Source: an uncultured Fibrobacteraceae bacterium
Lineage (GTDB): Bacteria; Krumholzibacteriota; Krumholzibacteriia; LZORAL124-64-63
Direction of reading: 5' to 3'
DNA: 64,000 bases
NCBI GenBank assembly: GCA_964559455.1
Contig: CAZLHO010000006.1
Span: 17,627-81,626 of the forward strand
Positions 27,220 to 51,385 of this stretch are shown piece after piece; positions within the stretch are counted from its first letter, which is position 1, and each line of letters opens with the position of its first letter. Under the pieces are notes generated by a model. It did no database searches. It was not told the DNA's origin and was given only the letters and a program-made list of their open reading frames with translations. The position numbers and the translations under genes are program-made.

Positions 27220-27443
27220 TCTTCTCCGGCATCGTGTCCCGCGGCGATGACGGCCCGGGCGTCGCGCGCATCCCGGCGGCGACGGTCCGCGACCGCTCCG
27301 GAAAGCCGGCCGCCGCCCGCGATCGCCGTCGCGCTGCGGTCCTCCTTCCCTTCCGGCCTTCGCGCCGGCGTCGGCACCCTCGTTGCAGCGGGGCGCATCG
27401 TGTCGCGTCGTGAGCCAGGGATTCCGGCCCGGGGAGGTGAATG

Positions 27444-27686: not shown

Positions 27687-28826
27687 ATGCACCAGGCGGA
27701 CGTCCTGCCGACGGCGGGGGAGAGCTGGGAACTCTGGAACCTGAGGGCGCTCTTTCCCGGCGCCGGCGTTGCGGACCTGCGGGACCTGGCCGACCGCCGG
27801 CGGCGGATCGTCGGCCTCGAGAGAAAGACCTTCGGCCGCGGCCTCGAGGCCAACCGCGGAATCGTGGCCGGGGCGGGGCTGTTCCTGGGCGCCCATCCGG
27901 AACTGCGCAGCGGCCTGATCGCGACCCTGCACCTGGGGCCCTACGCCTTGGTGCCCGCCCTCTACGCGCTGGCCGGCCTCGACCCGGTGGTCGTGGTCGA
28001 CCGCGCGGCGCTGGAGCGGCTGCGGGATCAGGCCGAGGCGCACCTGGCCGCTCTGGGCGCGTCGGGACGCCTGCAGTGGCTCTGCGTCGACGAGCCGGTA
28101 TTCGCCGGGCGGCTGCTGCGCGCGCTGCGGGGGGGCGGCGTGGCGGTGGTCTACCTGGACGGCAACGGCGGCAGCGGGGGCCCCGCGGCCACGCGCGAGC
28201 GCGGGATGCGCTACGAGCTGCCCGGGCGTGCGATCCGTCTGCAGACCGGTCTGGGGCGGCTGCTGCCCCGGGCCGGCTGCGCCGTCCACGGCCTGTTGAC
28301 GCGGTGGTCGGATGACGGAAATCTGGATTGGGAGCCCGGACCCGCCTGGCGCTGGCCGCGCGACGCCTCCGCCGACGAGATCACCACCGCGCTCTACGAT
28401 TGGGCCTTCACGGCCATCCGCCGTCATCCGGAACAATGGGCTTTCTGGGGGATGCTCGGGACGTCGAGCGAATGCTTCCGGTCGGACCGGCTCGAGGCCG
28501 GACCGGGCGGCAGGTCGCGCCGAGGGCGTTGCGCCTTCTTCTGCGACTGCCTGAGGACCTGCCCCGATGCGGTGCGCGCGACGTTGGCCGGAGAGGTCGA
28601 AGTCTGGCCCGGGGATGTCCTGGTCGATCTCGCCAACCAGCATTTCTACGCCGCGGAAGGACTGCGGGACGACGACCTCGAGGACCTGCGCTGGGGCGGC
28701 TCGCCGTCGCTGGCCGACCTGCGCCGGCGTCGCGGCGGTCGTTGGGTCGAGTTCCACCTGCTGCGACTCTACGTGCTGGATCTGGTCGCCCTGGAGATCG
28801 GCGGCCCCGGGACCGCGGGCGGGTGA
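27687..28826 (+). CDS. divergent LpxL/HtrB-like (LPLAT-superfamily) acyltransferase-fold protein
   Basis: Ordered parallels to lipid A lauroyl/myristoyl transferases: HLGPYAL for HFGNWE, VAVVYLDGNGG for ILPDQD.G, and a C-terminal IRRHPEQWAFWGML for RRYPDQWLWLHRRW. The acidic residue of the HX4D/E motif is absent. Confidence 0.4.
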   Translation: MHQADVLPTAGESWELWNLRALFPGAGVADLRDLADRRRRIVGLERKTFGRGLEANRGIVAGAGLFLGAHPELRSGLIATLHLGPYALVPALYALAGLDPVVVVDRAALERLRDQAEAHLAALGASGRLQWLCVDEPVFAGRLLRALRGGGVAVVYLDGNGGSGGPAATRERGMRYELPGRAIRLQTGLGRLLPRAGCAVHGLLTRWSDDGNLDWEPGPAWRWPRDASADEITTALYDWAFTAIRRHPEQWAFWGMLGTSSECFRSDRLEAGPGGRSRRGRCAFFCDCLRTCPDAVRATLAGEVEVWPGDVLVDLANQHFYAAEGLRDDDLEDLRWGGSPSLADLRRRRGGRWVEFHLLRLYVLDLVALEIGGPGTAGG

Positions 28827-39020: not shown

Positions 39021-39060
39021 TGGCCCGGAAGGGGTGCGCGCTCCTTCCGTTCGGGGACGA

Positions 39061-39094
39061 GGGGCAGCCCATCCATGGGCTGCCCCTCTCTTCG
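39061..39094 (+). terminator. intrinsic terminator after the DUF1579 gene
   Basis: GGGGCAGCCCA-tcca-TGGGCTGCCCC: perfect 11-bp stem, followed by tctcttcg. Confidence 0.5.
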
Positions 39095-39657
39095 CTCCGG
39101 CGTCGGCGGCATCCTGCCGCCGACTGCCTGCGCGGAGCCCCTCACGCAAGGAGCGCGCACCCCTTGCGGGGCATCATCATCGCTCGAAAGATCTCCGTCG
39201 TTCCGGTCTCTGCCCGGACTCCCGGCGGGTGTCGGCGCGAAGGAATGGCGTCCCTGAGCGGAAGGAGCACGACCCCTTTTCGGGCATCCTCGGCGCGCGG
39301 GCGATCTCCATCGTCGTCGTCGCTTGCGGTGCCGAGGGAGGACGGAGCGAACGGGGGGCGACAACGCGGGGGGACGGGGCGAAGGGAGGGGCTGGCGCAG
39401 TCGCGTCGGTTGCGCGGGGGCACGGGGATTGCCCCGGGCGGGGCGGCGGCAGGCGGGCGGCAGGCGCGCGCCGCGGCGGCCCAGGTCCGGCGCCCCGAAC
39501 CCCTCGACCGGAGTGGCGAAGACGGGGGCGTCCCGGCCCGGGGCTCGGCCCGGCCGGCGGGCTCGGCCCGCCCCGCCGCCGCTTCGGGCGTTGCATTGCC
39601 GGGACCCGTTGAGCATCATGTCCCGAAATGCCGGTTCGATTCCCGAGGGGGGGACCC

Positions 39658-40593
39658 GTGAACGCCCGATCGATCCCGACCGTCTGCCTGGGCCTGGCGC
39701 TGCTCCTGGCCGCGCCCGCGTGCGCGCAGGACCAGACCGCCGGCTCCGGCGCCGAGGACGATCCCTTCGTCCTGGACGTCGACGAGCTGCTGAAACAGGG
39801 CTTCGGCCTGATCGTCGCCGCCGAGGACTCCATCCCCTTCGCCGACGGCACCGCCGACACCGTGCTGATCACGGCGCCGCGGGTGACCGTGGCCGAGGTC
39901 GTGCGCCGCATCGGCGAGCGCATGGAGCGCGAGAGCCTGGCCATGGGCCGCCACGCGTACACCACGCGCACCAACGTGGTCATGCGCAAGCACGGCGAGG
40001 TGAAAGAGGGCCGCCCCGTCGAGATCAAGGTGCTGGAGCAGGCCGACCGCGTCACCGAGAGCGAGGGCGCGATCCAGATCGCGACCCTGTGGAAGCGCGA
40101 GCGCAAGCTGAGCGACGGCGAGGTCGTGGACGAGAAGGTCGACGACGAGGTCAGCGCCGACTGGCAGGCCGTCGAGGAGGCCGCCGAGCAGGGCATGAAC
40201 GTGCCCTTCTCGCTGCTGACCGGCGACGCCTACGACTACGAGATCCAGGAGCGCGCCCTGATCGGCGAGCACCTGATCTACCGCGTGGGCTTCGCGCCCA
40301 AGACCGGCTTCCGCGCCGAGCCCACGGGCACCGTCTGGATCGACTACGGCGAGTACGTGATCCGGCGCATGGAGGGCCGCGTCGACGCCCCCTTCACCAT
40401 GCCGCCCATCCTGAAGGGCATCCCCGAGTTCCGGCTGCGGCAGGAGCAGGTCGACGGCTGGTGGGTGCCGGTCGAGATCTACCTGCGCGTCGAGCTGCGC
40501 CGCCTGCTGCCCGGGATCCCCGCCGAGATCGAGCTCTTCTGGCGCAGCGAGGACCACGAATTCGAGAACTCCGGCGGGGAGGTCGCGCGATGA
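39658..40593 (+). CDS. hypothetical secreted/periplasmic protein
   Basis: GTG start 39658 after a G-rich RBS. Signal peptide VNARSIPTVCLGLALLLAAPACA. Acidic ~310-aa protein. Its stop overlaps the next start. Confidence 0.45.
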   Translation: MNARSIPTVCLGLALLLAAPACAQDQTAGSGAEDDPFVLDVDELLKQGFGLIVAAEDSIPFADGTADTVLITAPRVTVAEVVRRIGERMERESLAMGRHAYTTRTNVVMRKHGEVKEGRPVEIKVLEQADRVTESEGAIQIATLWKRERKLSDGEVVDEKVDDEVSADWQAVEEAAEQGMNVPFSLLTGDAYDYEIQERALIGEHLIYRVGFAPKTGFRAEPTGTVWIDYGEYVIRRMEGRVDAPFTMPPILKGIPEFRLRQEQVDGWWVPVEIYLRVELRRLLPGIPAEIELFWRSEDHEFENSGGEVAR

Positions 40594-41969
40594 AGCGACT
40601 CGCCCTGGCCTGCCTGCTGATGCTCCCGACCCTGGCCGCCGCCCTGCCGCCCGCGCCGGCCGACTCGCTGCTGTGGGAGAGCGAGCAGGCGGCCATCGAC
40701 TCGCTGAACAGCTACTGGCGCACCCTGGACGCCGACTGGTACGACCCCCTGACCCCCGAGCTGCTGGACTTCGGGCTGGACGCCGCGCGCCTGGACTCGC
40801 TGACGGCGGTGGGCGACGTCCTGATCGGGCGGATCCTGTCGGGCCGCTACGTGAAGACCGATTTCCACCCCTTCGGCATGATGGCCTTCAACCGCACCGA
40901 GGGGCTGCGGCCGGGCGCGTCGCTGGAGTTCGTGCGCCCCGGCCCGGCGCCGGCGCGGCTCGAGATCGGGGCCGGCTACGGCATCGCCAGCGAACGTGTG
41001 GTGCACGAGCACGGGCTGGATCTGCCGCTGGCCGTGGCCCGCCCGCGCGACGACCGGGGCGCGCTGAAGCGCCGCCCCTGGCCCTGGCTGTCGCTGCGCG
41101 CCGAGGGGGGGCGCGCGACGAGGGCCTTCGGCGGCGAGCTGGGCCGCACCTGGGACATGTGGGCCTTCCTCTACGGCGAGGAGCCCAGCCAGTTCTACGA
41201 GGACGAGTTCTGGCGCGCCGGCCTGCGGCTGCGGCCCCGGCCGGAGCTGGCCCTGGAGCTGGGCGGCGGGCATCACGACGAGCGCCCGCGGCCGGTGGCC
41301 ACCCGCTGGACCCTGTTCGGCGAGGCGAGCGACGTGGACCCCAACCTGCAGGTGCCGGCGCTGACCGCCCGCGAGCTCTACGCCGGGCTGCGCTGGCGCC
41401 GCGGCCGCGTGGAGGCCGGGGCGCGGATGACCTGGCTGCGCGCCGCGGGCGACCAGGTGAACGCCCCCTGGGGGGCGACGGACGCGTTGTGGCACCGCCG
41501 GCTGCGGCTGGACGGCGCGGCGACCCTGATCGACCGCTGGGGCACCGAATACGCCCTGAAGGGGGTGTGGCGCACCGCCGACCGCCGCGCGCCCCCGCAG
41601 TGGCAGCTGTTCCTGGGCGACTACGGCACCCTGAGGGGCTTCGAGGCCCGCGAGCTGGCCGGCGACGAGGGCGGCCTGGCCACCCTGGACGTGCGCCTGG
41701 GCGCCGACCCCTTCCGCGCCCTGCGCGTGCCCCTGCTGAAGAGCTTCCGCCTGCAGCCCATCCTCTTCGCCGAATACGGCCGCGCCCTGCGCGCCGAGGG
41801 CCCCGGAGAGCCCTACGGGGCCACCGGCTGGCGGGCCGACGTGGGCTTCGGCTTCGGCAAGGCCATCGGCCTGCCCGGCGTGGGCGGCAACCTGCGCATG
41901 TACGTGGCCCGCCCGGTGGGCCCGGGCATGGGCGACTACAGCTGGCGGGTGACGGTGGGGGTGGAGTAG
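40590..41969 (+). CDS. hypothetical outer-membrane beta-barrel-like protein
   Basis: Signal peptide MKRLALACLLMLPTLAAA. Alternating aromatic/basic strand pattern (W/Y/R-rich). ATGA coupling with the upstream gene. Confidence 0.45.
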   Translation: MKRLALACLLMLPTLAAALPPAPADSLLWESEQAAIDSLNSYWRTLDADWYDPLTPELLDFGLDAARLDSLTAVGDVLIGRILSGRYVKTDFHPFGMMAFNRTEGLRPGASLEFVRPGPAPARLEIGAGYGIASERVVHEHGLDLPLAVARPRDDRGALKRRPWPWLSLRAEGGRATRAFGGELGRTWDMWAFLYGEEPSQFYEDEFWRAGLRLRPRPELALELGGGHHDERPRPVATRWTLFGEASDVDPNLQVPALTARELYAGLRWRRGRVEAGARMTWLRAAGDQVNAPWGATDALWHRRLRLDGAATLIDRWGTEYALKGVWRTADRRAPPQWQLFLGDYGTLRGFEARELAGDEGGLATLDVRLGADPFRALRVPLLKSFRLQPILFAEYGRALRAEGPGEPYGATGWRADVGFGFGKAIGLPGVGGNLRMYVARPVGPGMGDYSWRVTVGVE

Positions 41970-42297
41970 GGAAATCTTGAACTTGACGTATCGAAATTAT
42001 CGTGGAGAATCATAGCCGCGGGCCCGATGGTCTGCGGCTGTTTCCTATCTCCCGGACAGCGTCGATTCACAGAATTTATCTAGTCGGCTCAACACCATGT
42101 ACTAACGCATCTCCCAAGATTCAACGGACGTCAACTAGCGACTACAAATCAAGTTTCCCGGTCGAGATGGGGGGTCTGTGGCCAGCATTTCGCCGCCTAG
42201 CAATCCCTGCCTGAAAGCAAACGCAGGGGCTGGAAGTCGTTAAGTCTGAACGAGTAGTATTTCAATCCATGTAAGCCGCGCAGAAAGGTACTCGCCC

Positions 42298-44850
42298 ATG
42301 CACAACATTGATGCCGCGATTACAAACGATCTGATAACCCACCCAAAATCAGGGACCAGCGGCATGATGGAATGGCTGAGAAAGAAGATGTTCAATGAAG
42401 AATATGAAGAGGTCTTCGAAAAGCTTGAATCGATTCTGGGGACTAACCAAAATGAGCCTGAAGGTGCGGAGTCGTCCGGGCTGAAGATTGCGGATATGGT
42501 AATTTTGGCCGCGGAGGCACGGTATCTATCTGGAGGATTTCAGGCATGCTTGGAGATGATCGATAAATATACGGAATCTGGGCTGCTGGAAGCAGAAGAC
42601 GGTGCTGCAAATTTAATTCGGGGATGGGTCTTGACTCAATATGGCAGGCACAACGAGGCCATGGACATAGCAAAAGGAGGCCTGAAAAGAACGACACTTA
42701 CTTCCAAGCCCTTGCTTCATGGGCAGTATTTGCACCTGAGGGGGATGTGCCGACATAAATTGGGGGACAATGAGAATGCTTTGGATGATCTAAGGGATTC
42801 CCAGGCCTTGTTTCGGCAGACAGGGGATCGTTTTCGAGAAATGAACGCGCTGAACGCACTCGCGATTGTCGAATCACGAGCTTTCTCTCTTGAGGGAGCG
42901 TGCCGGCACCTTGAGCGCTCACTGAGAATTCTGCCGAATGGTATCGGAAACGGAAGAAAGATTCAGGCCCTGCTGAACCATGCCGTCATGTTGTTCAAGA
43001 GGGGGTTGATCAGACAGGCGGAAATCCAAATTACGGCCGCATTGGCAATTCGATCAGGCCACCGTCCCGAATTGCAACATGCTAGACTGAATATTCTGAA
43101 AGCAAGGATTGCCGTTCAAAACGGAGAGTTCACTGAAGCCATGGAATTACTCGAGAAGGTTCTCGAGTTCTCGATTCGAAACAAATTCGCAAGAGAGGAG
43201 GCCATGGTTCTGGAAACCATGGCCGATTTGTTTCTGGCCAAGAATGAAGTGCTGCAAGCGGAGAGATTGATATCGAGGACACAAGAAGTGGCCGCGTCCC
43301 ATGATATGGAGGTGGATTTTGCGTCAGGGGCTCATCGCCGACGCGGGCAAATCCACCTGGCAGCAGAAGATTATGGGGAGGCGCTGAAAGAATTCCGTGT
43401 TTCGCTTGAAAGGGCGTTACTCGACAACGATACCCTAGAGGAGGGGCTGGCAAGACGATATCTATCGACTTGTTATCGATGCATGAGCATGTACGGGAAG
43501 GCCTATGCGGAATGTCGCAGATCGGTTGATATATTTCAGAAGCACTGCGTCGAAATCGAACTAGGGCGGAGCTACCTCGAGGCCGCACGTATCCGGATTT
43601 GCTGGCATTCATATCAGGAACAGTTGGCAGAAGATGATGACCTAGGCTCAATCATCCAGACTGGATCACCCACGGCCCCGCGCGAGGAGTACCGGGACCA
43701 TATCGAGGCGGCATGGAGCTATTCAGTCGAAGCGAGGCATCTCTTCGATCTTCTCGGCAACGCCCCGGGAGCGACAGACTGTGAACAGGAAATGGATATG
43801 ATGCGAGCCATCAAAATGCCATCACTTTGTTGCTTGCCATTCAAAATTACTACTGTTGGTCGGACGTCGCATGAGGAGTTTCCAAGTAGGCCGGTTGGTG
43901 GCGGGGAGATGATTGCGGCCTCCCCGGCAATGAAAAATCTTCTTGCCCTTGTCGATGTGGCAGCGACGACTTGTGAGCCAGTATTGATCACCGGTGAGAC
44001 CGGGACGGGGAAGGAGTTGATTGCACGCAGGATCCACGGATTGAGCTCAAGAGCAAAATTTCACATCGTTCCTGTAAATTGCGCCGCGATTCCCGATACG
44101 CTATTCGAGCGCGAATTTTTTGGGCACTGCCGAGGGGCCTACACAGGGGCAGATTCGGAGGCCCCGGGTCTTTGTGAGCAGGCTGACCGAGGCACCTTGT
44201 TCCTCGACGAAATCGGAGACTTGCCGCTGGTTCTCCAGGCAAAATTGCTCAGGATCCTACAAGAAGGGACATACAGGAAGTTAGGGGATCCAAAGGAGTT
44301 GCATGCAGACCTTCGCTTGGTTGCGGCCACGAACGCCTCGCTGGAAGAATTGATGATTTCTGGGAAATTTCGGCGAGATCTCTATTACCGACTGCAGACA
44401 ATGGAAATTCATGTGCCACCTCTTCGCGAGCGCAAAGAGGATATCGACCCGCTGATAAGCCTGTTCATTAAAAAAGTGTATTCCCGCAATGTCGTGATCC
44501 ATGATGTAATATCCAGTGAAGTTCTGCAGGCCCTTCACCATTATCCGTGGCCGGGTAATATCAGGGAACTCGAGGCCATCGTCCGGCGCTTGGCTCATTT
44601 GGCTCGGCACAAGGGCCAGGCGACCTTGGCCATGCTCCCCGACCACATCGCTCACTGGTACGACCGCCCCTCGGCCGTCGCAGGCTCCCTGGACCTCGCC
44701 GCCCATCTCTCCCGGGCCGAGAACGCCCGCATCCGCCACGCCCTGCTCCTCTCGGGCGACAACCGCAGCCAGGCCGCCCGGGCCCTGGGCATCTCCCGCA
44801 ACACCCTCTACAAGAAGATGGAGAAGCTGGGCATCCCGGGGGCGGCCTGA
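42298..44850 (+). CDS. sigma-54-dependent transcriptional activator with a ~500-aa N-terminal TPR-like sensory domain instead of a receiver domain
   Basis: AAA+ sigma-54 interaction domain (GETGTGKE Walker A; GAYTGA in place of GAFTGA; DEIGDLP Walker B; RELE arginine finger). C-terminal Fis-type HTH (RSQAARALGISRNTLYKK). The N-terminus carries repeated helical TPR-like units. The gene body is ~50% GC against ~70% in the flanks. Confidence 0.85.
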   Translation: MHNIDAAITNDLITHPKSGTSGMMEWLRKKMFNEEYEEVFEKLESILGTNQNEPEGAESSGLKIADMVILAAEARYLSGGFQACLEMIDKYTESGLLEAEDGAANLIRGWVLTQYGRHNEAMDIAKGGLKRTTLTSKPLLHGQYLHLRGMCRHKLGDNENALDDLRDSQALFRQTGDRFREMNALNALAIVESRAFSLEGACRHLERSLRILPNGIGNGRKIQALLNHAVMLFKRGLIRQAEIQITAALAIRSGHRPELQHARLNILKARIAVQNGEFTEAMELLEKVLEFSIRNKFAREEAMVLETMADLFLAKNEVLQAERLISRTQEVAASHDMEVDFASGAHRRRGQIHLAAEDYGEALKEFRVSLERALLDNDTLEEGLARRYLSTCYRCMSMYGKAYAECRRSVDIFQKHCVEIELGRSYLEAARIRICWHSYQEQLAEDDDLGSIIQTGSPTAPREEYRDHIEAAWSYSVEARHLFDLLGNAPGATDCEQEMDMMRAIKMPSLCCLPFKITTVGRTSHEEFPSRPVGGGEMIAASPAMKNLLALVDVAATTCEPVLITGETGTGKELIARRIHGLSSRAKFHIVPVNCAAIPDTLFEREFFGHCRGAYTGADSEAPGLCEQADRGTLFLDEIGDLPLVLQAKLLRILQEGTYRKLGDPKELHADLRLVAATNASLEELMISGKFRRDLYYRLQTMEIHVPPLRERKEDIDPLISLFIKKVYSRNVVIHDVISSEVLQALHHYPWPGNIRELEAIVRRLAHLARHKGQATLAMLPDHIAHWYDRPSAVAGSLDLAAHLSRAENARIRHALLLSGDNRSQAARALGISRNTLYKKMEKLGIPGAA

Positions 44851-44943
44851 GCCCGTTCCGGGCGTCTTCGGGGGCGGCGTTGTTGACAATGATTCTCTTG
44901 ACCATGCAGTCTCAAAGATCCCTTGACACGCCCTTTGGGCCTG

Positions 44944-44958
44944 TGGCACTCTGCTAGC
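44944..44958 (+). promoter_or_regulatory. candidate sigma-54 (-24/-12) promoter element
   Basis: TGGCAC-tctgc-TAGC has the GG and GC dinucleotides at the canonical spacing (consensus TGGCACG-N4-TTGC). It lies 94 nt downstream of the activator gene and ~115 nt upstream of a small ORF. Confidence 0.3.
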
Positions 44959-45071
44959 GTGCCGGACTCTACCGGCGCGAGGGTACCCCACGACCCTGCA
45001 CCTGCCCGAACCCGCATCCCGGTGCCCGTCTGTACGGTTAGCCCGAGTGACCATCCTCTGGGGGAGGAGTG

Positions 45072-45200
45072 ATGGGCAGGGCTTGCGTTCACCCATGGCG
45101 GCTGGTTGTAGTCTTCGTCCTGACTCTGCGGTTCTTCTTCGGCGTGCTTACGCTGCCACGCGTGGTCCCTGTGGCCTCGTCCCCGAAGCCGGCGCTCTAG
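45072..45200 (+). CDS. putative 42-aa single-TM small protein
   Basis: GGGGGAGGAG RBS. MGRACVHPWRLVVVFVLTLRFFFGVLTLPRVVPVASSPKPAL. Too short to appear in the ORF track. Confidence 0.25.
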   Translation: MGRACVHPWRLVVVFVLTLRFFFGVLTLPRVVPVASSPKPAL

Positions 45201-45311
45201 AGGGTTGAGCGTCGGCGCCCCGGTCGCTTCCGGAGGGCGACTCGCAGTCCGGCGGTTCCCACCGCCGGGGAAACCTCCGGGCCAAGGCCCGCGGCCCTGC
45301 CGGCACGATCG

Positions 45312-45338
45312 GCGGCCGCGGGCCGCTATTTTTTGCCC
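45312..45338 (+). terminator. intrinsic terminator (GC stem plus T-tract)
   Basis: GCGGCC-gcg-GGCCGC followed by TATTTTTTG. Confidence 0.4.
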
Positions 45339-45406
45339 CGCGACGCCGCCCCCCGTACCGTGCTAGGCTCCGGCGGTCCTCTTCCGCGCAACCCGGAGGT
45401 CCATCG

Positions 45407-46174
45407 ATGTCCCGCGCCCGTCTTCTCGTCCCCCTGGCCCTGCTGGCCGCGCTGCTGGCCGCAGGCTGCGACAACGGCGGCCCCGAGAGCGGTCCGTACA
45501 TCGCCGGCGTGGTCGTCGACGCCGCCGGCAAGCCCGTCGAGGGCGCTCGCCTGAACATCATCTACGCCTTCGAGATCATTCCCGCCGTCGATCGCGGCGG
45601 GGACGATCCGCCGCCGCCGCCGGTGCCCATGACCCTGCTCGGCCTGCCCAACCCCTTCGAGATCCAGGGCCTCGTCCGCTTCACCGTGCCGTTCCCGGGC
45701 ATGGTCCGGCTGCGGGTCCTCGACCACGAGGGCCGGCCGGTGCGCACGCTCGTCCTCGGAGAGCTGGTGGCTGGCGTCCACCAGATCGCCTGGTCGACCC
45801 TGGACGACGCGGGCGTCCCCTTGGCCAACGGCCTCTACGCGCTGGACCTCGTCCTGAGCGACGGCGAGCGCGAGGTCCCCATGACCTGGCCCTGGGTCTT
45901 CATCAACAACGTGGACGGGTCCATGCTGGCCGACGCCGCGCTGGACGTGACCGACCGCATCGGCCGCTTCCGCATCCCCTCCGGGGCCCTGCCGCTGGGC
46001 CGCGAGATCCCGCTCGTCGGCTCGGAGGGCCTGGATCGCGGCGAATTCACCGTCCGCTCCACGCTGCGGCTCTACGCCTTCGCCGGCGACGGGCCGGACT
46101 ACTCCAGCGCCATGGCCGAGCTGGTCCTGCCCGCGGACGGCGGCGGACGGCTGGTGCAGCTGGTCCTGGAGTGA
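45407..46174 (+). CDS. lipoprotein with a CarboxypepD_reg-like domain and an internal FlgD-Ig/T9SS-CTD-like beta-sandwich
   Basis: Lipobox LLAAGC. YIAGVVVDAAGKPVEGARLNI (carboxypeptidase-regulatory-like). LPNPFEIQGLVRFTVP...HQIAWSTLDDAGVPLANGLYALDL resembles the Por-secretion-tail / FlgD Ig-like domain. Confidence 0.55.
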   Translation: MSRARLLVPLALLAALLAAGCDNGGPESGPYIAGVVVDAAGKPVEGARLNIIYAFEIIPAVDRGGDDPPPPPVPMTLLGLPNPFEIQGLVRFTVPFPGMVRLRVLDHEGRPVRTLVLGELVAGVHQIAWSTLDDAGVPLANGLYALDLVLSDGEREVPMTWPWVFINNVDGSMLADAALDVTDRIGRFRIPSGALPLGREIPLVGSEGLDRGEFTVRSTLRLYAFAGDGPDYSSAMAELVLPADGGGRLVQLVLE

Positions 46175-46285
46175 GCGCCGCCCGGCGTGGTGGTGTATCC
46201 TATCCTGAGGAGCCGGAGGCGGCGGGGCCCCCGTCAGCCCCCTTCGAACGCCCGGACGCCGCCGTCGGATAATCAGACGCCACCG

Positions 46286-49200
46286 ATGAAACCGCGACCC
46301 GCACGTCTGCTCGCCCGTCTCCTGCCGCTGCTGACGGCGGCCGCGGCGTTCTGCGCCCAGCCCGCCTTCGCCGCGCCCCCCGACTACGTCCCCGATCAGG
46401 TCCTGGTCAAGTTCCGGCCCGCCGCCGCCCGCGCCGACCGCGAGGTCCTGCTGCGCGAGATCGGTGAATCGACCGTGCGCGAGCTGCGGCCCCTGGACGT
46501 GCAGGTCCTCCGCCTGGCCCCCGGCGCGGACGGCGCCGATCCCGTGCCGGCCGCCCTGGCCCGCTGGCGCGGCCATCCCCTGGTCGAGTACATCGAGCCC
46601 AACTGGATCCTGAGCGGCTGCGTCCTGCCCGACGACCCCCTGCTGCCCGACCAGTGGCACCTCTTCAACGACGGCGCCGACGGCGGCGTGGCCGGCGCCG
46701 ACGTGGGCGCGGCCCTGGGCTGGGACGTGGCCGTCGACGCCCGCCCGGTGGTCGTGGCCGTCCTGGACAGCGGCGTCGACTACACCCATCCCGACCTGGC
46801 GGCCAACATGTGGGACGGCGGACCCGGGTTGCCGCATCACGGCTGGGATGTCGTCGCCAACGACGACGACCCCATGGACGAGTACGGCCACGGCACCCAC
46901 GTCGCGGGCCTGATCGGCGCCGTCGGCGGCAACGGCCGCGGCGGGGCGGGGGTGTGCTGGAACGTGCGCCTGATGGCGATCCGCATCCTGGACGGGGCCA
47001 ACCGCGGCCGGCTGGACGACATCGTCCTCGGGGTCCTGCTGGCCGTCGGGTGGGGCGCCGACGTGCTGAACAACAGCTACGGCGACGCCGGCGAGTATTC
47101 GCAGACCTTCCGCGACGCCGTCGCCTACGCCGCGGACCGGGGGGTGCTCTTCGTGGCCGCCGCCGGCAACGACGCCGTCGACAACGACCTCGTCCCCTTC
47201 TATCCCGCCGACTACGACCTGCCCAACGTCGTCTCGGTGGGCGGCACAGACCGGCGGGACGAACTCGCCGAATGGTCGAACTACGGCGCAGCCTCGGTGG
47301 ACCTGGCCGCGCCCGGAGACGGGATCTTCAGCACCGGCTGGCCGGGCCACGGCTACCGGACGATCTCCGGCACCTCGATGGCGGCGCCGCAGGTCTCCGG
47401 GGCGGCCGCCCTGATCCGCGCGCGACATCCCGAGGTCGATCTGGACACCTGGCGGGCCTGGCTGCTGGCGGGCGCCGAGCCCCTGCCCTCCCTGCAGCGG
47501 CGCACCGTCACCGGCGGCCGGCTGGACCTGGGCCGGGCCCTGGCCGCGGCCGACCTGACGCCGCCGTCGCCGGTGGACGACCTGCGGGCCGAGGCCGTCT
47601 CGCCCTGGCGGGTGCTGCTGACCTGGACCGCGCCCGGCGACCTGGGGGGCCTGCCCGCGCCCGCCCGCTACGAGATCCGCCGTTCGGACGGCCCCCTGGA
47701 CGCCGCGAACTTCGACGCGGCGATCCTCGTGCCCGCGCCGCCGACTCCATCGGCGGCCGGAGCGCCCGAGACCCTTTCGGTGGGCGGGCTGGAGCCGGGG
47801 GCGACCCTGAGCTTCGCCCTGCGGGCGATCGACGCCGCGGGCAATGCCGCGCCCCTGTCCAACGTCGTCACGGCCTTGACTCCCCCGGCGGCCTCGCTGC
47901 AGGTCTCCGGCCCCGACCTGGCGGCCGACCTGCCGACCGGGACCGCCCGCGAGTTCCCGCTCGTCGTCCGCAATCCCGGCCCCGGTCCCATGGCCTGGGT
48001 GGTCCGCGCGGTCGGCTTCCCCGCCGTATCCGCTTCCGAGGCCGCGCCCTCTTCTTCCTCGCGCCCGGCCGCGTCGGCGCCGCGACCGCGCGCATCCGTC
48101 TCCGTGGACCGCCTGCGGCTGCGCACACCCGGGGCCGCGCCGGCGGATCTGGTCGCGCTGGCCGAGGGCGCGGGGGTGGGACTGGTCTTCAGCGACGACG
48201 TCGAATCCGGTCCCGGCGGCTGGACCGGCGACGGCGACGGCTTCGCGCTGTGGAACCTGAGCCGCGACGCCTACGGCAGCCCCTTCGTCTCCTGGCGCTG
48301 CGGCTTCGCCGGGACGGGCTACGCCACGGGCGACAGCGTGGACGCGGCGCTGGTCTCGCCGACGATCGACCTCGGGCGGGTCGACGGGACGGCAACCCTG
48401 GAGTTCCTGGAGTGGTTCGTCACCGAACCCGACCGCGACTTCTGCCGCGTCGAGGCGGCCGCGCCCGGCGACCCGTCGTGGACGCCGCTGCGCGCGCCCG
48501 TCTCGGGCGACGGCGGTGGCTGGGCCCTGCGCGCTCTGGACCTGACGCCCTGGGTCGGCGGTCCGGTGCGCGTCCGCTTCCGCCTGACCGCGGCCGACGC
48601 CCTGGTCAACGACCTGCCCGGCTGGTTCGTGGACGACGTGCGCGTGGTCGCGGGGGGCTGCTCCTGGCTCGTCCCCGATCGGAACTCGGGCCTGCTGGCG
48701 GCGGGCGCCGTCGACACGCTGCGCGTGCGGCTGGACGCGGGCGGCCTCTGTGGCGGCCGGCGCTACGGCCAGCTCGAGTTCGCGTTCGCCGACCCCGACG
48801 CGCCGGCCGTCCTGCTGCCCGCCGCCCTCGACGTGAGCGCGGCCCCCGATCTGGACCTGGACGCGGCCGCTCTGGACCTGGGCCCCGTCTTCGTCGGCGC
48901 CGAGCGGCGCGCCTTCGTCACGGTCACCAACGCCGGCTGCCTGGATCTGGTCGTGACGGGGGTCGAGTCCGAGGGCGAGGGCTTCGCGACGACCGACGGG
49001 TCGGCGTTCTCGTTGCCGCCCGGCGGCGCGCGCGCCCTCGATGTGGTCTTCGCGCCGATTGTGCCCGGGGCGGCGGCCGGAGCCTTGCGGCTGTTCTCGA
49101 CCGACCCCGACGCCTCGATCACGGCGCTGCCCCTGTCCGGCGCAGGACTGGAGCCTCCGTTCCCCGTCCTGGTCGATCCGGAGCCCGGATGCTCCGCCGT

Positions 49201-51373
49201 GTCGAGCGCGATCGTCGATCCCGGGGTCCTGCTGCGCAACGACGGCGCCTCGCCGCTGCGCTGGAGCCTGGCCGGGCCGCTGCCGCCCGAGCCCGAGGGC
49301 GTCCTGCCGGCCCCGCCGCCGCCGCCGGCCGTGGGCGAGGACCTGCGCGGGCGCCGCATCCTGTGGCTGCGCCGCCACAGCGAGATGCCGTCTTTGGGCA
49401 GCATCCGCTTCGTGGAGGATATGCGCGACCGGGGGGCCGAGGTGGTCGAGACCTCGGCGGTGGTCACGGCCGAGCTGCTGGCCGGCGCCGACCTGGCCCT
49501 GGTCGTGGGCGGCAGCCTCTGGAACGCCGTCGAGCGCGACGCCCTGGCCGTCTGGCTGCGCGGGGGCGGCGGCCTACTGATCGTGGCGCGGCTGCAGTCG
49601 AGCATCGCGGCGGCCAACGACATCCTGGGCGCGGCCGGGGCCGGGCTGGGCTACGGCTGGCCCGGCGGCGTCGTCGGCCCGGGCGAGCCTGTGACCTCGC
49701 ATGCCGTGCTGGCCGGCGTCCGCGACATCGAGCTGTCCCAGAACGACGGCTGGCTCGCGGTGGACTGGCCCGGCCGGCCCCTGCTGCGCGATCCCGGCGG
49801 CAGGCTGGCCGCGGCGATCTCCCTGCCGGGCCGCGGCCGCATCGTGGCCCTGGCTTCGCTGACGCCCCTGGACTTCGCCATCGACGCCGGCGACAACCGG
49901 CGCTTCATGAACAACATCGTCGACTGGCTGTCGGCGCGCTGGCTGCGCGCGACGGCGCTCGAGGGGGTCGTGCCCGCCGGCGACGCCGTCGTCCTGCCGC
50001 TGCGCGTGGATACCGGCGGCCTGGTCGCCGGCGCGCACGTCGACACCCTCGTCCTGCACACCAACGCCCCGGACGCGCCGACGCTGCCCTTGCCCGTGCG
50101 GGTGGACGTCCGCGGCGTGCCGAAGCTGGTGGTGGACGGACTGAACCTGGAGGACGAGGTTGTGGACTTCGGCCCGGCCGGACTCGACGAGGCGCTGGAT
50201 CGCGATCTGGTCCTGCGCAACCACGGCACCGGCGACCTGCACCTGCTGGACCTGGCCGCGGACGGCGCCGGTTTCGGGATAGCGCTGCGGGATCCGGCCC
50301 CCGTGCTCGCCCCCGGCGACAGCGTCACGGCGACGCTGCGCTTCCGCCCCGAAGTCCTGGGGCCGCATCTGGGAGGCCTGGAGCTGGGCACCGACGACCC
50401 GCGTCTGCTCCGGCGCCGGATCTGGCTCTCGGGCTTGGGGTTGACGCCGGCGCAGATCGCCGTCGGACCCGACTCGCTCGTCGCCGAGCTCTACACCGCC
50501 GGCATCTCCCGCATCCTGCTGACCTTCACGAACACGGGCGGGGCGCCGCTGCGCCTGACGCTGGCGCCCACCGTCGCCTGGATCATCCCCCAGGCCACGA
50601 CCCTCGACGTGCCCGGGGGCGAGGCGCGCCAGCTCTACGCAGCGATCTACGCCTACGAGATGGGGGACGGCGACTACACGGGCGCCCTGCGGATCGGCAC
50701 CAACGTGCCCGAAAGGCCGGTCGTCGTCCTGCCGGCCCGCCTGCGCGTTTTCAACGCGCCCGACCTGGTCGTGGTCCCTTCCTTCGTGGAGTTTCCGCCG
50801 ACGATGATCTACGAAGAGGCCTACGAGCACGTCTACCTGCAGAACCATGGCTCGGTGCGGCTGGACATCGAGTGGCCGCCCCAGGTCGATTCGCCCTATC
50901 TCGAGGTTCTGGGTCCCGACGTTCCCTACATGTGGGTCCCGCCGGGCGAGGCCATGGTCTTCTACCTGCGCTACCGCCCGCTGGAGCCCGACATCCTGGA
51001 CGCCGTCATGCGCATCCGCAGCAACGACCCCTACGAGCCCGTGGTCGAGGTTCTGGTCAGCGGCGAAACAATCTACCGGCCGCAGAAGGAAGGTCCCGAG
51101 AAGCTGGTCAACGTCCCCAACCCCTTCAACCCGCTCACGGAGCTGCGCTTCACGCTGCCCGCCGCGGGCCGCGCCGAGGTGCGGATCTACGATCTCAGGG
51201 GAAGGCTGGTGCGCCGGCTGGACGCGGGCGCGCGCCCGGAGGGGCCGGGCGCGCTGAGCTGGGACGGCCGGGGCGACGACGGGGCGTCGGCCTCCAGCGG
51301 GACCTACCTGGCGCGGCTGCTGCTCGACGGCCGTCCCCTGGGCGAGCCCCGCCGCATGAAGCTGCTGCGCTGA
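46286..51373 (+). CDS. giant secreted subtilisin-like serine protease (peptidase S8) with multiple ASH / choice-of-anchor-D-like Ig domains, a ThuA/GATase1-like insert and a T9SS-type C-terminal sorting domain
   Basis: Start ATG 46286 (MKPRPARLLARLLPLLTAAAAFCAQPAFA). I9-like propeptide (VLVKFRPAAARADREVLLREIG). Catalytic triad motifs AVLDSGVDYTHPDL, HGTHVAGLIGAVGGNG and GTSMAAPQVSGAAAL. C-terminus NVPNPFNPLTELRFTLP...SWDGRGDDGASASSGTYLARL matches the Por_Secre_tail pattern. Confidence 0.85.
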   Translation: MKPRPARLLARLLPLLTAAAAFCAQPAFAAPPDYVPDQVLVKFRPAAARADREVLLREIGESTVRELRPLDVQVLRLAPGADGADPVPAALARWRGHPLVEYIEPNWILSGCVLPDDPLLPDQWHLFNDGADGGVAGADVGAALGWDVAVDARPVVVAVLDSGVDYTHPDLAANMWDGGPGLPHHGWDVVANDDDPMDEYGHGTHVAGLIGAVGGNGRGGAGVCWNVRLMAIRILDGANRGRLDDIVLGVLLAVGWGADVLNNSYGDAGEYSQTFRDAVAYAADRGVLFVAAAGNDAVDNDLVPFYPADYDLPNVVSVGGTDRRDELAEWSNYGAASVDLAAPGDGIFSTGWPGHGYRTISGTSMAAPQVSGAAALIRARHPEVDLDTWRAWLLAGAEPLPSLQRRTVTGGRLDLGRALAAADLTPPSPVDDLRAEAVSPWRVLLTWTAPGDLGGLPAPARYEIRRSDGPLDAANFDAAILVPAPPTPSAAGAPETLSVGGLEPGATLSFALRAIDAAGNAAPLSNVVTALTPPAASLQVSGPDLAADLPTGTAREFPLVVRNPGPGPMAWVVRAVGFPAVSASEAAPSSSSRPAASAPRPRASVSVDRLRLRTPGAAPADLVALAEGAGVGLVFSDDVESGPGGWTGDGDGFALWNLSRDAYGSPFVSWRCGFAGTGYATGDSVDAALVSPTIDLGRVDGTATLEFLEWFVTEPDRDFCRVEAAAPGDPSWTPLRAPVSGDGGGWALRALDLTPWVGGPVRVRFRLTAADALVNDLPGWFVDDVRVVAGGCSWLVPDRNSGLLAAGAVDTLRVRLDAGGLCGGRRYGQLEFAFADPDAPAVLLPAALDVSAAPDLDLDAAALDLGPVFVGAERRAFVTVTNAGCLDLVVTGVESEGEGFATTDGSAFSLPPGGARALDVVFAPIVPGAAAGALRLFSTDPDASITALPLSGAGLEPPFPVLVDPEPGCSAVSSAIVDPGVLLRNDGASPLRWSLAGPLPPEPEGVLPAPPPPPAVGEDLRGRRILWLRRHSEMPSLGSIRFVEDMRDRGAEVVETSAVVTAELLAGADLALVVGGSLWNAVERDALAVWLRGGGGLLIVARLQSSIAAANDILGAAGAGLGYGWPGGVVGPGEPVTSHAVLAGVRDIELSQNDGWLAVDWPGRPLLRDPGGRLAAAISLPGRGRIVALASLTPLDFAIDAGDNRRFMNNIVDWLSARWLRATALEGVVPAGDAVVLPLRVDTGGLVAGAHVDTLVLHTNAPDAPTLPLPVRVDVRGVPKLVVDGLNLEDEVVDFGPAGLDEALDRDLVLRNHGTGDLHLLDLAADGAGFGIALRDPAPVLAPGDSVTATLRFRPEVLGPHLGGLELGTDDPRLLRRRIWLSGLGLTPAQIAVGPDSLVAELYTAGISRILLTFTNTGGAPLRLTLAPTVAWIIPQATTLDVPGGEARQLYAAIYAYEMGDGDYTGALRIGTNVPERPVVVLPARLRVFNAPDLVVVPSFVEFPPTMIYEEAYEHVYLQNHGSVRLDIEWPPQVDSPYLEVLGPDVPYMWVPPGEAMVFYLRYRPLEPDILDAVMRIRSNDPYEPVVEVLVSGETIYRPQKEGPEKLVNVPNPFNPLTELRFTLPAAGRAEVRIYDLRGRLVRRLDAGARPEGPGALSWDGRGDDGASASSGTYLARLLLDGRPLGEPRRMKLLR

Positions 51374-51385
51374 TCCGTCGACGGG

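What the first reader, a model, noticed from the sequence alone, without database searches (positions are those of the whole stretch)
41970..45340. Low-GC (~50%) island carrying a TPR-fused sigma-54 activator, followed by a sigma-54-like promoter, a 42-aa TM ORF and a terminator
Composition drops from ~70% to ~50% GC from ~41970 to ~44600. It returns to high GC inside the activator's C-terminal HTH coding region, suggesting a horizontally acquired or recombined segment whose 3' end was replaced by a native-like HTH. The bEBP lacks a receiver domain and has a ~500-aa TPR-like sensor, so it is likely controlled by protein-protein interaction. Ninety-four nt downstream sits TGGCAC-N5-TAGC (a -24/-12-like element). 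Next come an RBS-preceded 42-aa single-TM ORF and a canonical terminator. This is a compact PspF/PspG-like self-contained regulatory unit. No mobility genes are visible.
Basis: partly seen in the sequence, partly recalled or inferred. Interest (0 to 1): 0.6.

Follow-up and report, generated by a model that had tools for sequence, protein, structure and literature searches.

The report
Mosaic AT-rich sigma-54 activator gene
Most of a resident regulator gene in a 72% GC bacterium is written in roughly 50% GC DNA that switches back to host-like DNA in mid-gene, and the same oddity recurs in this gene family in about a dozen other high-GC genomes, so it looks like a hypervariable, repeatedly exchanged sensor cassette and not a one-off island.

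Summary
GC falls from 0.72-0.78 to about 0.51 between 41965, the stop codon of the upstream gene, and about 44604. The right edge lies inside an intact 850-aa ORF, where GC3 jumps from 0.55 to 0.96. The block is identical in at least six independent assemblies.

The ORF encodes an 11-repeat TPR sensor, a sigma-54 AAA+ domain (GAYTGA) and an HTH_8 tail. It is not an inserted island. The gene sits at a conserved position (LolA-like p321, beta-barrel bb460, then the TPR activator) in many genomes with GC from 0.44 to 0.73. The sister species in the same metagenome carries a host-GC allele.

About 11-12 of about 28 family loci in high-GC hosts show an AT-rich block. It always covers the 5' sensor half and ends at varying points: about aa 325, about aa 500, aa 769, or the gene end. 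These AT-rich segments are extremely divergent. Their synonymous sites are saturated, while flanks or the rest of the gene give dS of 0.3-0.9.

The best reading is recombinational allele replacement at a hypervariable sensor locus. A conserved GGCAC-N5-TTGC upstream of p321 is a better target candidate. Why the alleles stay AT-rich is unexplained.

The parts
39029..39278 (.). Three copies of a dyad AAGGRG-N5-7-CYCCTT (39029, 39148, 39262), set in about 114-nt tandem units 140-390 nt upstream of the candidate -24/-12 element. This is a candidate enhancer (UAS) for the activator.
   Evidence: only 3 matches in 64 kb, 0.02 expected. The pattern was derived post hoc. It is not found in other species' loci.
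39418..39433 (+). Candidate sigma-54 promoter GGGCACGGGGATTGCC (GGCAC-N5-TTGC), 195 nt upstream of p321.
   Evidence: It is one of only 2 GGCAC-N5-TTGC matches in the window. The same element sits at the equivalent place in L019, L048 and L029. GGC[CT]C-N5-TTGC is there in L013, L054 and L091.
39628..40593 (+). p321: a secreted protein of unknown family with a LolA/RseB-like fold. First gene of the conserved module.
   Evidence: GC3 0.97. No Pfam, NCBIfam or PADLOC hit. 23 unnamed homologue clusters. AF2 pLDDT 72; Foldseek hits to LolA3, the lipoprotein-sorting domain 3bk5, DUF1329 and RseB/MucB at E 5e-7 to 1e-4, but TM only 0.2-0.4.
40587..41969 (+). bb460: a signal-peptide protein with a weak ShlB/Omp85-like beta-barrel tail. 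Second gene of the module; its stop codon is the left edge of the AT-rich block.
   Evidence: ShlB E 3.5e-4, below the cut-off. Synteny with the activator in more than 9 loci. 17 SNPs among the assemblies fall in this gene, 11 of them synonymous.
41965..44604 (.). AT-rich block (GC 0.51, GC3 0.55). It comprises the 328-nt spacer with its promoter region plus codons 1-769 of the activator.
   Evidence: There are zero differences among 6-8 assemblies.
41983..42010 (+). Sigma-70-like promoter match (TTGACG-16-GAGAAT) inside the AT-rich spacer. It may be the activator's own promoter, brought in with the block.
   Evidence: 9/12 matches, and the count is not above chance.
42298..44850 (+). TPR-sensor sigma-54 activator, 850 aa. 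Sensor aa 1-530 (42298-43887); AAA+ aa 539-705 (43912-44412), with GETGTGKE at 43993 and GAYTGA at 44134; lid aa 710-786; HTH_8 aa 807-844 (44716-44829).
   Evidence: Sensor model pLDDT 84, pTM 0.82, 23 helices. Family signature LFEREFFGH...GLCE.
44570..44605 (+). Recombination junction, just after the WPGNIRELE (sensor II) motif and 12 codons into the lid helix.
   Evidence: Scaffold L008 diverges from the window exactly at 44604/44605.
44605..44850 (+). Host-composition tail of the activator (aa 770-850: linker plus HTH_8).
   Evidence: GC3 0.96. In four assemblies, gene callers called only a 149-aa product from internal start 44401 to the stop at 44850, that is lid and HTH plus about 200 nt of the AT-rich block.
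44944..44958 (+).
   Evidence: 1 found, 0.69 expected. Not conserved in relatives.
45072..45200 (+). 42-aa ORF with one hydrophobic segment and a GGAGG RBS. Coding status is uncertain.
   Evidence: GC3 0.79. Called as a gene in one of six assemblies (L005). No family hit. No homologue in family loci.
45276..45337 (+). Intrinsic terminator: a GC-rich hairpin followed by a T6 run.
   Evidence: -42 kcal/mol.

Best explanation
Shown:
- The stretch 41965-44604 is not an inserted island.
- It covers the promoter spacer and the first 769 codons of a resident gene.
- That gene is the third gene of a conserved module: LolA-like p321, beta-barrel bb460, then a TPR-sensor sigma-54 activator.

Inferred, origin: the block was put there by recombination with a very divergent AT-rich allele of the same gene. 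One crossover fell at the end of bb460. The other fell just after the conserved WPGNIRELE motif. The product is a chimera with an imported TPR sensor and AAA+ ATPase and the resident linker and HTH_8 DNA-binding tail. It should therefore keep the resident DNA targets while changing what it senses.

Shown, recurrence: AT-rich, hyper-divergent segments that always include the 5' half of the sensor occur in about a dozen other high-GC genomes. Their end points differ and tend to sit at domain boundaries.

Inferred, mechanism:
1. The TPR solenoid binds a protein or peptide partner and so gates assembly of the ATPase ring.
2. The ring, bound through HTH_8 to upstream sites, opens a sigma-54 promoter.
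3. The most likely target is the conserved GGCAC-N5-TTGC upstream of p321-bb460, an envelope-associated pair, and not the element downstream of the gene.
For: Composition: sharp switches at both ends, with GC3 going from 0.55 to 0.96 within about 12 codons. The ORF is intact with all AAA+ motifs. GAYTGA is the natural motif of the active activator HrpS (PMC3105312). The block is reproduced identically in six assemblies.

Ancestral position: the p321-bb460-activator order holds in L019, L013, L048, L033, L029, L026, L047, L054, L012 and L091. The sister species L176/L019, from the same metagenome, has MqnRS about 80% nt identical and the same gene order, and carries a host-GC allele.

Recurrence: about 11-12 of about 28 distinct family loci in hosts of at least 0.60 GC have AT-rich sensors. 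GC3 profiles break at about aa 300-350 (L015, L014, L102, L011), about 500 (L100), 769 (window), or the gene end (L091, L047, L095).

Discordant divergence: L011 vs L014 are 88% identical in AAA, 88% in the tail and 73% in sensor-C, but 28% in sensor-N. L100 vs L015 are 81% in AAA but 23% and 21% in the two sensor halves. AT-rich segments have pS 0.76-0.94 (saturated), while the rest of the gene gives dS 0.56-0.86. For L091 vs L047, flank dS is 0.27-0.40 against a saturated block, with one shared left boundary in three related hosts. GC-rich allele pairs used as controls show no such discontinuity.

Target: the conserved -24/-12 element upstream of p321 and the triple dyad.

Sensor: TPR superhelix; the best PDB matches are peptide-binding TPRs such as LGN/Pins, OGT and APC/C.
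Against: - No donor is known. Nothing closer than about 31% (sensor) or about 64% (AAA) identity exists among 1.84 billion representatives, the GTDB genomes, the metagenome contigs returned, plasmids or viral contigs.
- Almost every AT-rich allele found sits in a high-GC host. Only L026, L027 and L029 are in 0.44-GC hosts. Simple import from low-GC organisms is therefore not demonstrated.
- The window's tail is not specially close to the sister species' tail (45%), so phylogeny does not show it to be native. The case rests on composition.
- Some family members (L015, L018, L011, L095) lack p321/bb460 neighbours, which weakens the proposed target.
- The -24/-12 element starts GGGCAC, not TGGCAC, and is degenerate or absent in some loci.
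- rpoN is not in the window.
Confidence: 0.6

Rival explanations
1. In-place evolution, with no import. The 5' part of this gene and its promoter region undergo locally accelerated, AT-biased change, either by targeted or transcription-linked hypermutation or by loss of GC-biased gene conversion where alleles are too divergent to recombine. The segment then decays towards mutational AT-richness while selection keeps the protein functional.
For: - AT-rich alleles are found almost only inside high-GC hosts, and no donors are known.
- The AT-rich part always includes the 5' sensor half and the upstream spacer.
- L018 and L011 show stepwise gradients: GC3 is 0.42/0.62/0.74 in L018 and 0.46/0.71/0.79 in L011 (sensor/AAA/tail).
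- There is no amelioration despite saturated dS in three related hosts that share one boundary.
- Within the clade formed by L015, L018, L100, L014, L011 and L102, sensor-N identity roughly scales with identity in the rest of the gene for the closest pairs (49-52% against 87-88%).
Against: - The window's right boundary is abrupt, within about 12 codons, as expected of a crossover.
- The identity drop of 88% to 28% within one gene pair (L011/L014), while the equally close pair L014/L102 keeps 52%, is discontinuous.
- There is no ongoing variation: zero SNPs in the 2.64-kb block across 6-8 assemblies, against 19 in the adjacent 2.55 kb. P0080 is identical in four assemblies.
- No mechanism is known that would target one gene in this way.
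Confidence: 0.2
2. This is a horizontally acquired, self-contained PspF/PspG-like unit. The activator drives the TGGCAC-N5-TAGC element 94 nt downstream, giving a transcript of about 370 nt that encodes a 42-aa membrane peptide and ends at the terminator.
For: - All the elements are physically present and correctly ordered.
- The element is the only TGGCAC-N5-TNGC in 64 kb, and it falls in a 556-nt intergenic region next to an activator gene.
- One gene caller predicted the small ORF.
Against: - The match is no better than chance for the window: 0.69 expected, and 49% of shuffles have at least one.
- It has A in place of the conserved T at -14.
- The small ORF has GC3 0.79 against about 0.95 in host genes, and no clear frame signal.
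- Nothing equivalent exists in the sister species or in other family loci.
- Promoter, ORF and terminator lie in host-composition DNA outside the exchanged block.
- PspF-defining features are not met: the protein has a 530-aa sensor, and no PspA or PspG was found.
Confidence: 0.1
3. A classical genomic island or mobile-element insertion, for example one integrated next to the tRNA-Asn gene that follows this activator in many relatives.
For: - tRNA-Asn(GTT) lies directly downstream of the activator in L007, L012, L013, L023, L026, L027, L029 and L033.
- The downstream region is variable among relatives.
Against: - The window has no tRNA, no direct or inverted repeats at the block's edges, and no integrase or transposase.
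- The block contains only a spacer and part of one gene that is syntenic in relatives.
- No plasmid or viral contig carries the sensor.
Confidence: 0.04
4. An assembly chimera between a high-GC and a lower-GC organism that share this gene family.
For: - All the data come from metagenome assemblies.
- Scaffold L008 of the same project carries clear mis-joins: a pth fragment, Ns and an alien 100-nt end.
Against: - Both junctions are reproduced base-for-base in six assemblies made by three pipelines from several samples.
- A chimera would need two in-frame joins between sequences that share no long identical k-mers.
- Analogous mosaics occur in unrelated projects.
Confidence: 0.03

Closest known systems
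Bacterial enhancer-binding proteins (sigma-54 activators of the NtrC/NifA/XylR/HrpS class)
   Same: Sigma54_activat AAA+ core with Walker A/B, a GAFTGA-type loop (GAYTGA, as in HrpS), a lid and a C-terminal Fis-type HTH_8. The N-terminal regulatory domain is swappable by lineage.
   Different: The N-terminal domain is an 11-repeat TPR solenoid of about 530 aa, not REC, GAF, PAS, V4R or FHA. All NCBIfam equivalogs score far below their cut-offs. The family has its own signature (LFEREFFGH, GLCE) and its own conserved neighbours.
Hypervariable specificity loci with sharp internal boundaries (Staphylococcus agr: agrB 3' part, agrD, agrC sensor half; Bacillus comQXP). Recalled from my own knowledge, not tested here.
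   Same: A hyper-divergent segment embedded in conserved flanks. Its boundaries fall inside genes: the 3' part of the upstream gene in L091, L047 and L054, and the sensor part of the regulator. The output domain is conserved. Allele divergence far exceeds flank divergence.
   Different: No signal-peptide gene is shown to co-vary. The regulator is a cytoplasmic AAA+ activator, not a membrane histidine kinase. The segment differs from its genome by 20-35 GC points, far more than in those loci.
O-antigen and capsule gene clusters, which are low-GC hypervariable cassettes exchanged by flanking homology. Recalled from my own knowledge.
   Same: Persistently AT-rich, hyper-diverse alleles at one conserved chromosomal position, with unknown donors and no amelioration.
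   Different: Here the cassette is a single regulatory gene or part of one, and mosaic breakpoints fall inside the coding sequence at domain borders.
STAND/NLR-type receptors with repeat sensors (MalT, bacterial Avs, fungal NLRs)
   Same: The logic is the same: a repeat (TPR-like) sensor gates an oligomerising ATPase fused to an effector or HTH. There is a weak TPR_MalT match. NLR sensors are typically hypervariable (PMC13449251, seen).
   Different: The ATPase is a sigma-54 AAA+ domain, not a NACHT or NB-ARC STAND module. The sensor is N-terminal. No defence-system model matches beyond the generic AAA-HTH part.
PspF and the Psp response
   Same: A sigma-54 activator without a receiver domain, possibly linked to envelope genes. 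p321 has an RseB/LolA-like fold.
   Different: PspF has no sensor domain and is controlled in trans by PspA. No PspA, PspB, PspC or PspG homologue is present.

Membership tests
Sigma-54 enhancer-binding protein (bEBP) | AAA+ Sigma54_activat domain with Walker A and Walker B | tested here: met
   PF00158 E 7.5e-62, aa 539-705. GETGTGKE and DEIGD are present.
Sigma-54 enhancer-binding protein (bEBP) | GAFTGA sigma-54 contact loop | tested here: met
   The loop is GAYTGA at 44134. The same variant occurs in P0001, P0077, P0080 and L019. HrpS is always GAYTGA and is active (PMC3105312).
Sigma-54 enhancer-binding protein (bEBP) | C-terminal DNA-binding HTH | tested here: met
   HTH_8 E 2.5e-9, aa 807-844.
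Sigma-54 enhancer-binding protein (bEBP) | rpoN present in the genome and a -24/-12 promoter under its control | tested here: inconclusive
   There is no RpoN box in the 64-kb window, and the rest of the genome was not available. Candidate promoters are 39419-39432 (conserved) and 44944-44958 (not conserved).
PspF/PspG-type phage-shock unit | Activator without a sensory domain, controlled in trans by PspA | tested here: not met
   A 530-aa TPR sensor is present. The TIGR02974 pspF model scores 234 bits against a cut-off of 444. No PspA domain is present in the neighbours.
PspF/PspG-type phage-shock unit | Target small membrane protein homologous to PspG | tested here: not met
   The 42-aa ORF has no NCBIfam or Pfam hit and no counterpart in related loci.
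Mobile genomic island | Integrase or transposase, flanking repeats, tRNA or other attachment site | tested here: not met
   No tRNA in the window. No repeats at either edge. The block holds only a spacer and part of one syntenic gene.
Hypervariable allelic cassette (agr, comQXP or O-antigen type) | Hyper-divergent segment with sharp boundaries between conserved flanks at one chromosomal position | tested here: met
   One left boundary is shared by L091, L047 and L054.
Hypervariable allelic cassette (agr, comQXP or O-antigen type) | Allele divergence much older than flank or host divergence | tested here: met
   Flank dS is 0.27-0.40 against a saturated block. Within one gene, dS is 0.56-0.86 against saturated.
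Hypervariable allelic cassette (agr, comQXP or O-antigen type) | Several alleles segregating within one species, and a co-varying ligand or partner | not testable with these tools
   The window population is monomorphic for the block. No partner has been identified.
RRNPP-type peptide receptors | HTH (or phosphatase) plus TPR receptor with an adjacent secreted pro-peptide gene | tested here: not met
   The architecture is TPR-AAA+-HTH. The spacer ORF 42002..42214 has no signal peptide. Small secreted proteins precede the gene only in L014, L102 and L018.

The most novel reading that the evidence does not exclude
This activator family carries a long-lived, hypervariable AT-rich sensor cassette inside otherwise 65-75% GC genomes. 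On this reading, many ancient allele types are kept by diversifying or balancing selection on what the TPR sensor recognises, such as a partner, signal or antagonist protein. They move between related genomes by recombination in the conserved flanks and at domain borders. They stay at GC3 of about 0.3-0.55, without amelioration, because they escape whatever force (biased gene conversion or selection) keeps the rest of the genome GC-rich. If true, the locus would be a natural within-genome control for the unresolved question of why bacterial genomes are GC-rich despite AT-biased mutation.
Probability: 0.3. Interest if true: 0.8.

Novelty: new variant of a known kind. Interest (0 to 1): 0.62.

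Why it matters
First, it shows a clean natural domain swap. A sigma-54 activator exchanged its sensor and motor in one step and kept its resident DNA-binding tail, which rewires input without touching output.

Second, the swap is one instance of a family-wide pattern that does not fit the usual account of a foreign gene that slowly ameliorates. The AT-rich alleles are found inside high-GC hosts. They are older than the host splits and show no drift towards host composition. That makes the locus a candidate test bed for what maintains high GC content, and a pointer to an unknown, fast-evolving ligand of a TPR sensor tied to an envelope operon.

Third, there is a practical point. Gene callers tuned to the host composition miss the AT-rich 5' part and predict only a 149-aa tail. 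In cluster look-ups, the 850-aa protein was hidden behind a 183-aa fragment. Such mosaics are therefore systematically under-reported.

Tried and rejected
- Exact look-up of bb460: not on record.
- Genome scan with bb460 as a single protein: found nothing.
- Rfam search on 41.5-45.6 kb: only a sub-threshold glycine-riboswitch match inside the ORF, which I dismissed.
- tRNA search of the window: none.
- Metagenome scan for L008's alien 100-nt end: none. It also matches none of the loci held.
- Search for the project or sample identifiers in papers: none.
- NCBIfam: no family-specific model for the activator, p321, bb460 or the 42-aa ORF.
- PADLOC: only the generic AAA-HTH part matches.
- Plasmid tblastn and viral-contig scan for the sensor: none.
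- Dyad AAGGRG-N5-7-CYCCTT as a family-wide UAS: rejected, since it is found only in this population.
- A 'native tail' shown by phylogeny: the tail is somewhat closer to the high-GC alleles P0001/P0077 than the AAA identity predicts, but it is only 45% identical to the sister species' tail. I do not rely on it.
- Zero SNPs in the block as evidence for a recent sweep: rejected as not significant, because baseline diversity outside p321-bb460 is only about 0.1%.

Full report
**1. The observation.** The window is 0.66-0.78 GC throughout, except for one trough of 0.48-0.56 between 42.0 and 44.6 kb. Likelihood change points fall at 41964 and 44570.

The left edge is the stop codon of a host-composition gene, 40587..41969. 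The right edge lies inside an intact ORF, 42298..44850 (850 aa). GC3 runs at 0.40-0.72 for about 757 codons and then at 0.92-1.0. Read codon by codon, the last AT-style codons end at 44604, twelve codons after WPGNIRELE. The remaining 81 codons have GC1/2/3 of 0.69/0.51/0.96, like host genes.

The protein carries TPR repeats, Sigma54_activat (539-705), AAA_lid_14 and HTH_8 (807-844), and has no receiver domain.

- TGGCACTCTGCTAGC at 44944.
- An RBS-preceded 42-aa hydrophobic ORF at 45072..45200.
- A strong hairpin followed by a T-run at about 45276-45337.

**2. It is not an artefact.** Contigs from ENA, JGI and Logan assemblies of several samples (L001, L002, L004, L005, L009, L010) carry the same block. 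Both junctions and an intact ORF are present, with no difference anywhere in 41965-44604.

In four of these assemblies the gene caller predicted only the 149-aa GC-rich tail. In the protein collection, the full-length protein is clustered behind a 183-aa fragment. This explains why the first homology search returned no identical protein.

**3. It is not an inserted island.** A search of 1.84 billion representatives with the sensor found a small family of 800-940-aa TPR activators that align over the whole sensor. They share a signature in the ATPase domain: LFEREFFGH...GA(F/Y)TGA...GLCE.

Scanning genomes and metagenomes with that signature gave 42 loci with sensor homology. In ten of them, the two genes upstream of the window's activator (p321 at 39628..40593 and bb460 at 40587..41969) precede the activator in the same order. 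These hosts range from 0.44 to 0.73 GC. In eight loci, tRNA-Asn follows the activator.

The closest relative is L019 together with L176, which are 99% identical to each other. L176 comes from the same metagenome as the window's population. It shares the wider gene order: MqnC-like radical SAM, PHP, DUF1579, p321, bb460, activator ... serpin ... DUF5916. Identity to the window is about 80% nt in the radical-SAM gene, and 57% and 51% aa in p321 and bb460. Its activator has host-like GC throughout.

So the window's gene occupies its ancestral position. Only the spacer and codons 1-769 differ in composition.

**4. The same thing recurs.** Among about 28 distinct family loci in hosts of at least 0.60 GC, about 11-12 have an AT-rich stretch:
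- Whole gene, plus the 3' part of bb460 in three of the four: L091, L047, L054 and L095, with GC3 0.30-0.43 in hosts of 0.62-0.73 GC.
- Sensor plus ATPase: the window.
- Sensor or its 5' half only: L015, L014, L102, L011, L018 and L100.

Plotted on a common alignment, the GC3 switch falls at about aa 300-350, about aa 500, aa 769 or the gene end. The 5' half of the sensor and the upstream spacer are always inside.

The AT-rich parts are also the hyper-divergent parts:
- L011 and L014 are 88% identical in the ATPase, 88% in the tail and 73% in the C-terminal sensor half, but 28% in the N-terminal half.
- L100 is 80-81% identical to L015 and L018 in the ATPase, but 21-24% in the sensor.
- Synonymous sites are saturated in AT-rich segments (pS 0.76-0.94), while the rest of the same genes gives dS 0.56-0.86.
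- Pairs of GC-rich alleles show no such break.

Three related hosts, L091, L047 and L054, have flanks that are 82-88% nt identical (dS 0.27-0.40) up to one shared boundary inside bb460. Past that boundary their blocks are only 65-69% identical. Synonymous sites there are saturated and GC3 is still about 0.33.

**5. Interpretation of the block.** Four features are what recombination between very divergent alleles leaves behind:
- Abrupt composition switches.
- In-frame joins at domain borders.
- Discontinuous identity within single genes.
- Flanks much younger than the block.

I therefore read the window's block as an allelic replacement. One crossover fell at the end of bb460 and the other just after the conserved sensor-II motif.

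What I cannot show is where the AT-rich alleles come from. No relative closer than about 31% (sensor) was found anywhere, including plasmids and viral contigs. All but three AT-rich alleles sit in high-GC hosts. This leaves room for two less ordinary readings:
- Ancient allele types maintained within these lineages and never ameliorated.
- A local AT-biased acceleration of change.

Three things argue against ongoing hypermutation. The window's block is monomorphic across assemblies, while the adjacent 2.55 kb holds 19 mostly synonymous SNPs. P0080 is identical in four assemblies. The window's junction is sharp. However, baseline diversity elsewhere in the contig is low (about 0.1%), so the absence of SNPs is not significant on its own.

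**6. What the protein does (inferred).** The sensor folds confidently (pLDDT 84, pTM 0.82) into 23 helices forming a TPR superhelix. The nearest solved folds are peptide- and protein-binding TPRs: LGN/Pins, OGT and APC/C subunits.

All ATPase motifs are intact. The GAYTGA loop is the natural variant of the active activator HrpS (PMC3105312).

p321 has no sequence family. Its model (pLDDT 72) matches LolA-superfamily folds, namely LolA3, a lipoprotein-sorting domain, DUF1329 and RseB/MucB. The E-values are good but the TM-scores are low. bb460 has a signal peptide and a weak ShlB/Omp85-like barrel tail. The conserved partners therefore look like an envelope pair.

**7. Which promoter.**

- It is the only such match in the window, but 0.69 are expected by chance.
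- It departs from the consensus at the -14 T.
- It lies in host-composition DNA outside the block.
- It has no counterpart in the sister species, which has a convergent gene there, or in other loci, which have tRNA-Asn there.
- The 42-aa ORF has weak coding statistics and no homologues.

The alternative, GGCAC-N5-TTGC:
- It occurs only twice in 64 kb. One copy is at 39419-39432, 195 nt upstream of p321.
- The same element lies upstream of p321 in L019, L048 and L029. A GGC[CT]C-N5-TTGC version is there in L013, L054 and L091.
- Three dyads, AAGGRG-N5-7-CYCCTT, lie 140-390 nt upstream of it. These are the only three in the window. The motif is not shared by other species.

I consider p321-bb460 the more likely target, at perhaps 45%. 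I note that some family members lack these neighbours and that rpoN is not in the window.

If the enhancer lies outside the block, keeping the resident HTH tail would explain why this particular crossover survived.

**8. Comparison and novelty.** The protein is a bona fide member of the sigma-54 activator class, with an N-terminal domain type and a family not covered by curated models. It does not meet the defining features of a Psp unit, a mobile island, an RRNPP receptor or a STAND protein.

The evolutionary pattern most resembles hypervariable specificity loci whose boundaries fall inside genes (agr, comQXP), and the persistently AT-rich O-antigen cassettes. These comparisons rest on my own knowledge and were not tested here. 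The differences are that this is a cytoplasmic AAA+ regulator, that the breakpoints sit at domain borders, and that the GC gap is 20-35 points.

I rate it a new variant of a known kind. It is of moderate to high interest, mainly because the recurrence and the lack of amelioration are unexplained.

Noticed in passing
window 44401-44850; L001, L002, L004, L005: In four assemblies, gene callers predicted only a 149-aa product (lid plus HTH) and left 2.4 kb uncalled. In the protein collection, the 850-aa protein is clustered behind a 183-aa fragment. AT-rich mosaics in high-GC contigs are thus easily lost from protein databases.
   Followed up: yes
L008 3104-3203, against window 44605 onward: Scaffold L008 (SAMN06140898) follows the block perfectly up to 44604. 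It then continues with 100 nt of unrelated 55% GC sequence, diverging exactly at the composition junction. That sequence does not encode an activator tail and matches nothing held or scanned. The same scaffold also contains a mis-placed pth fragment and Ns, so this may be a mis-join or a second genomic context of the block.
   Followed up: partly
window 39413-41964: 19 SNP positions among the assemblies cluster in p321-bb460, 17 of them in bb460 and mostly synonymous. The block has none, the next 2.6 kb has 3, and the rest of the 20 kb compared has about 0.1%. Several haplotypes of bb460 are linked to one identical block.
   Followed up: partly
window 27373-27386: The only other GGCAC-N5-TTGC in the window lies about 300 nt upstream of ORF 27687..28826, a 379-aa protein with no family hit. 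It is a possible second sigma-54 promoter.
   Followed up: no
window 39021-39627: This 600-nt stretch between DUF1579 and p321 has no clear coding frame. It holds about 114-nt tandem units, each with a palindrome (CGGAAGGGGTGC/GCGCTCCTTCCG and variants), plus an 18-nt tandem repeat at 39541-39576.
   Followed up: partly
window 45407-52699, against L019 7748-9926 and L176: Relative to the sister species, the window has a FlgD_ig lipoprotein and a 1728-aa S8 peptidase with a FlgD_ig tail inserted between the activator and a convergent serpin gene. The sister species instead has a small secreted protein on the opposite strand. Most other family loci have tRNA-Asn(GTT) directly after the activator, but the window has no tRNA at all.
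   Followed up: partly
L054 5245-7756: The AT-rich activator in L054 is broken into three frames and is probably a pseudogene. It is still at GC of about 0.40 in a 0.70-GC host.
   Followed up: no
L014 214-687; L102 1256-1600; L018 19-234: In L014, L102 and L018, which belong to the related group L015/L018/L100/L014/L011/L102, a small secreted acidic protein is encoded immediately upstream of the activator inside the AT-rich zone. It has a signal peptide followed by a motif like GEGDPGGGDTSPAKDDD. This could be a partner or signal, and it has no counterpart in the window.
   Followed up: no
L033 2287-4551: In L033, p321 and bb460 read through as one 754-aa ORF. This is either an apparent fusion or a missed stop or frameshift.
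   Followed up: no
L005 1-74, against window 41123-41196: The first 74 nt of contig L005 do not match the window. This is probably a contig-end artefact or a strain variant inside bb460.
   Followed up: no
L091 8188-9129: A neighbour of the P0080 locus carries the Fib_succ_major domain. Several family loci are labelled uncultured Fibrobacteraceae or Krumholzibacteriota. The window's organism is probably from the Fibrobacterota/FCB group, but its taxonomy was not verified.
   Followed up: no
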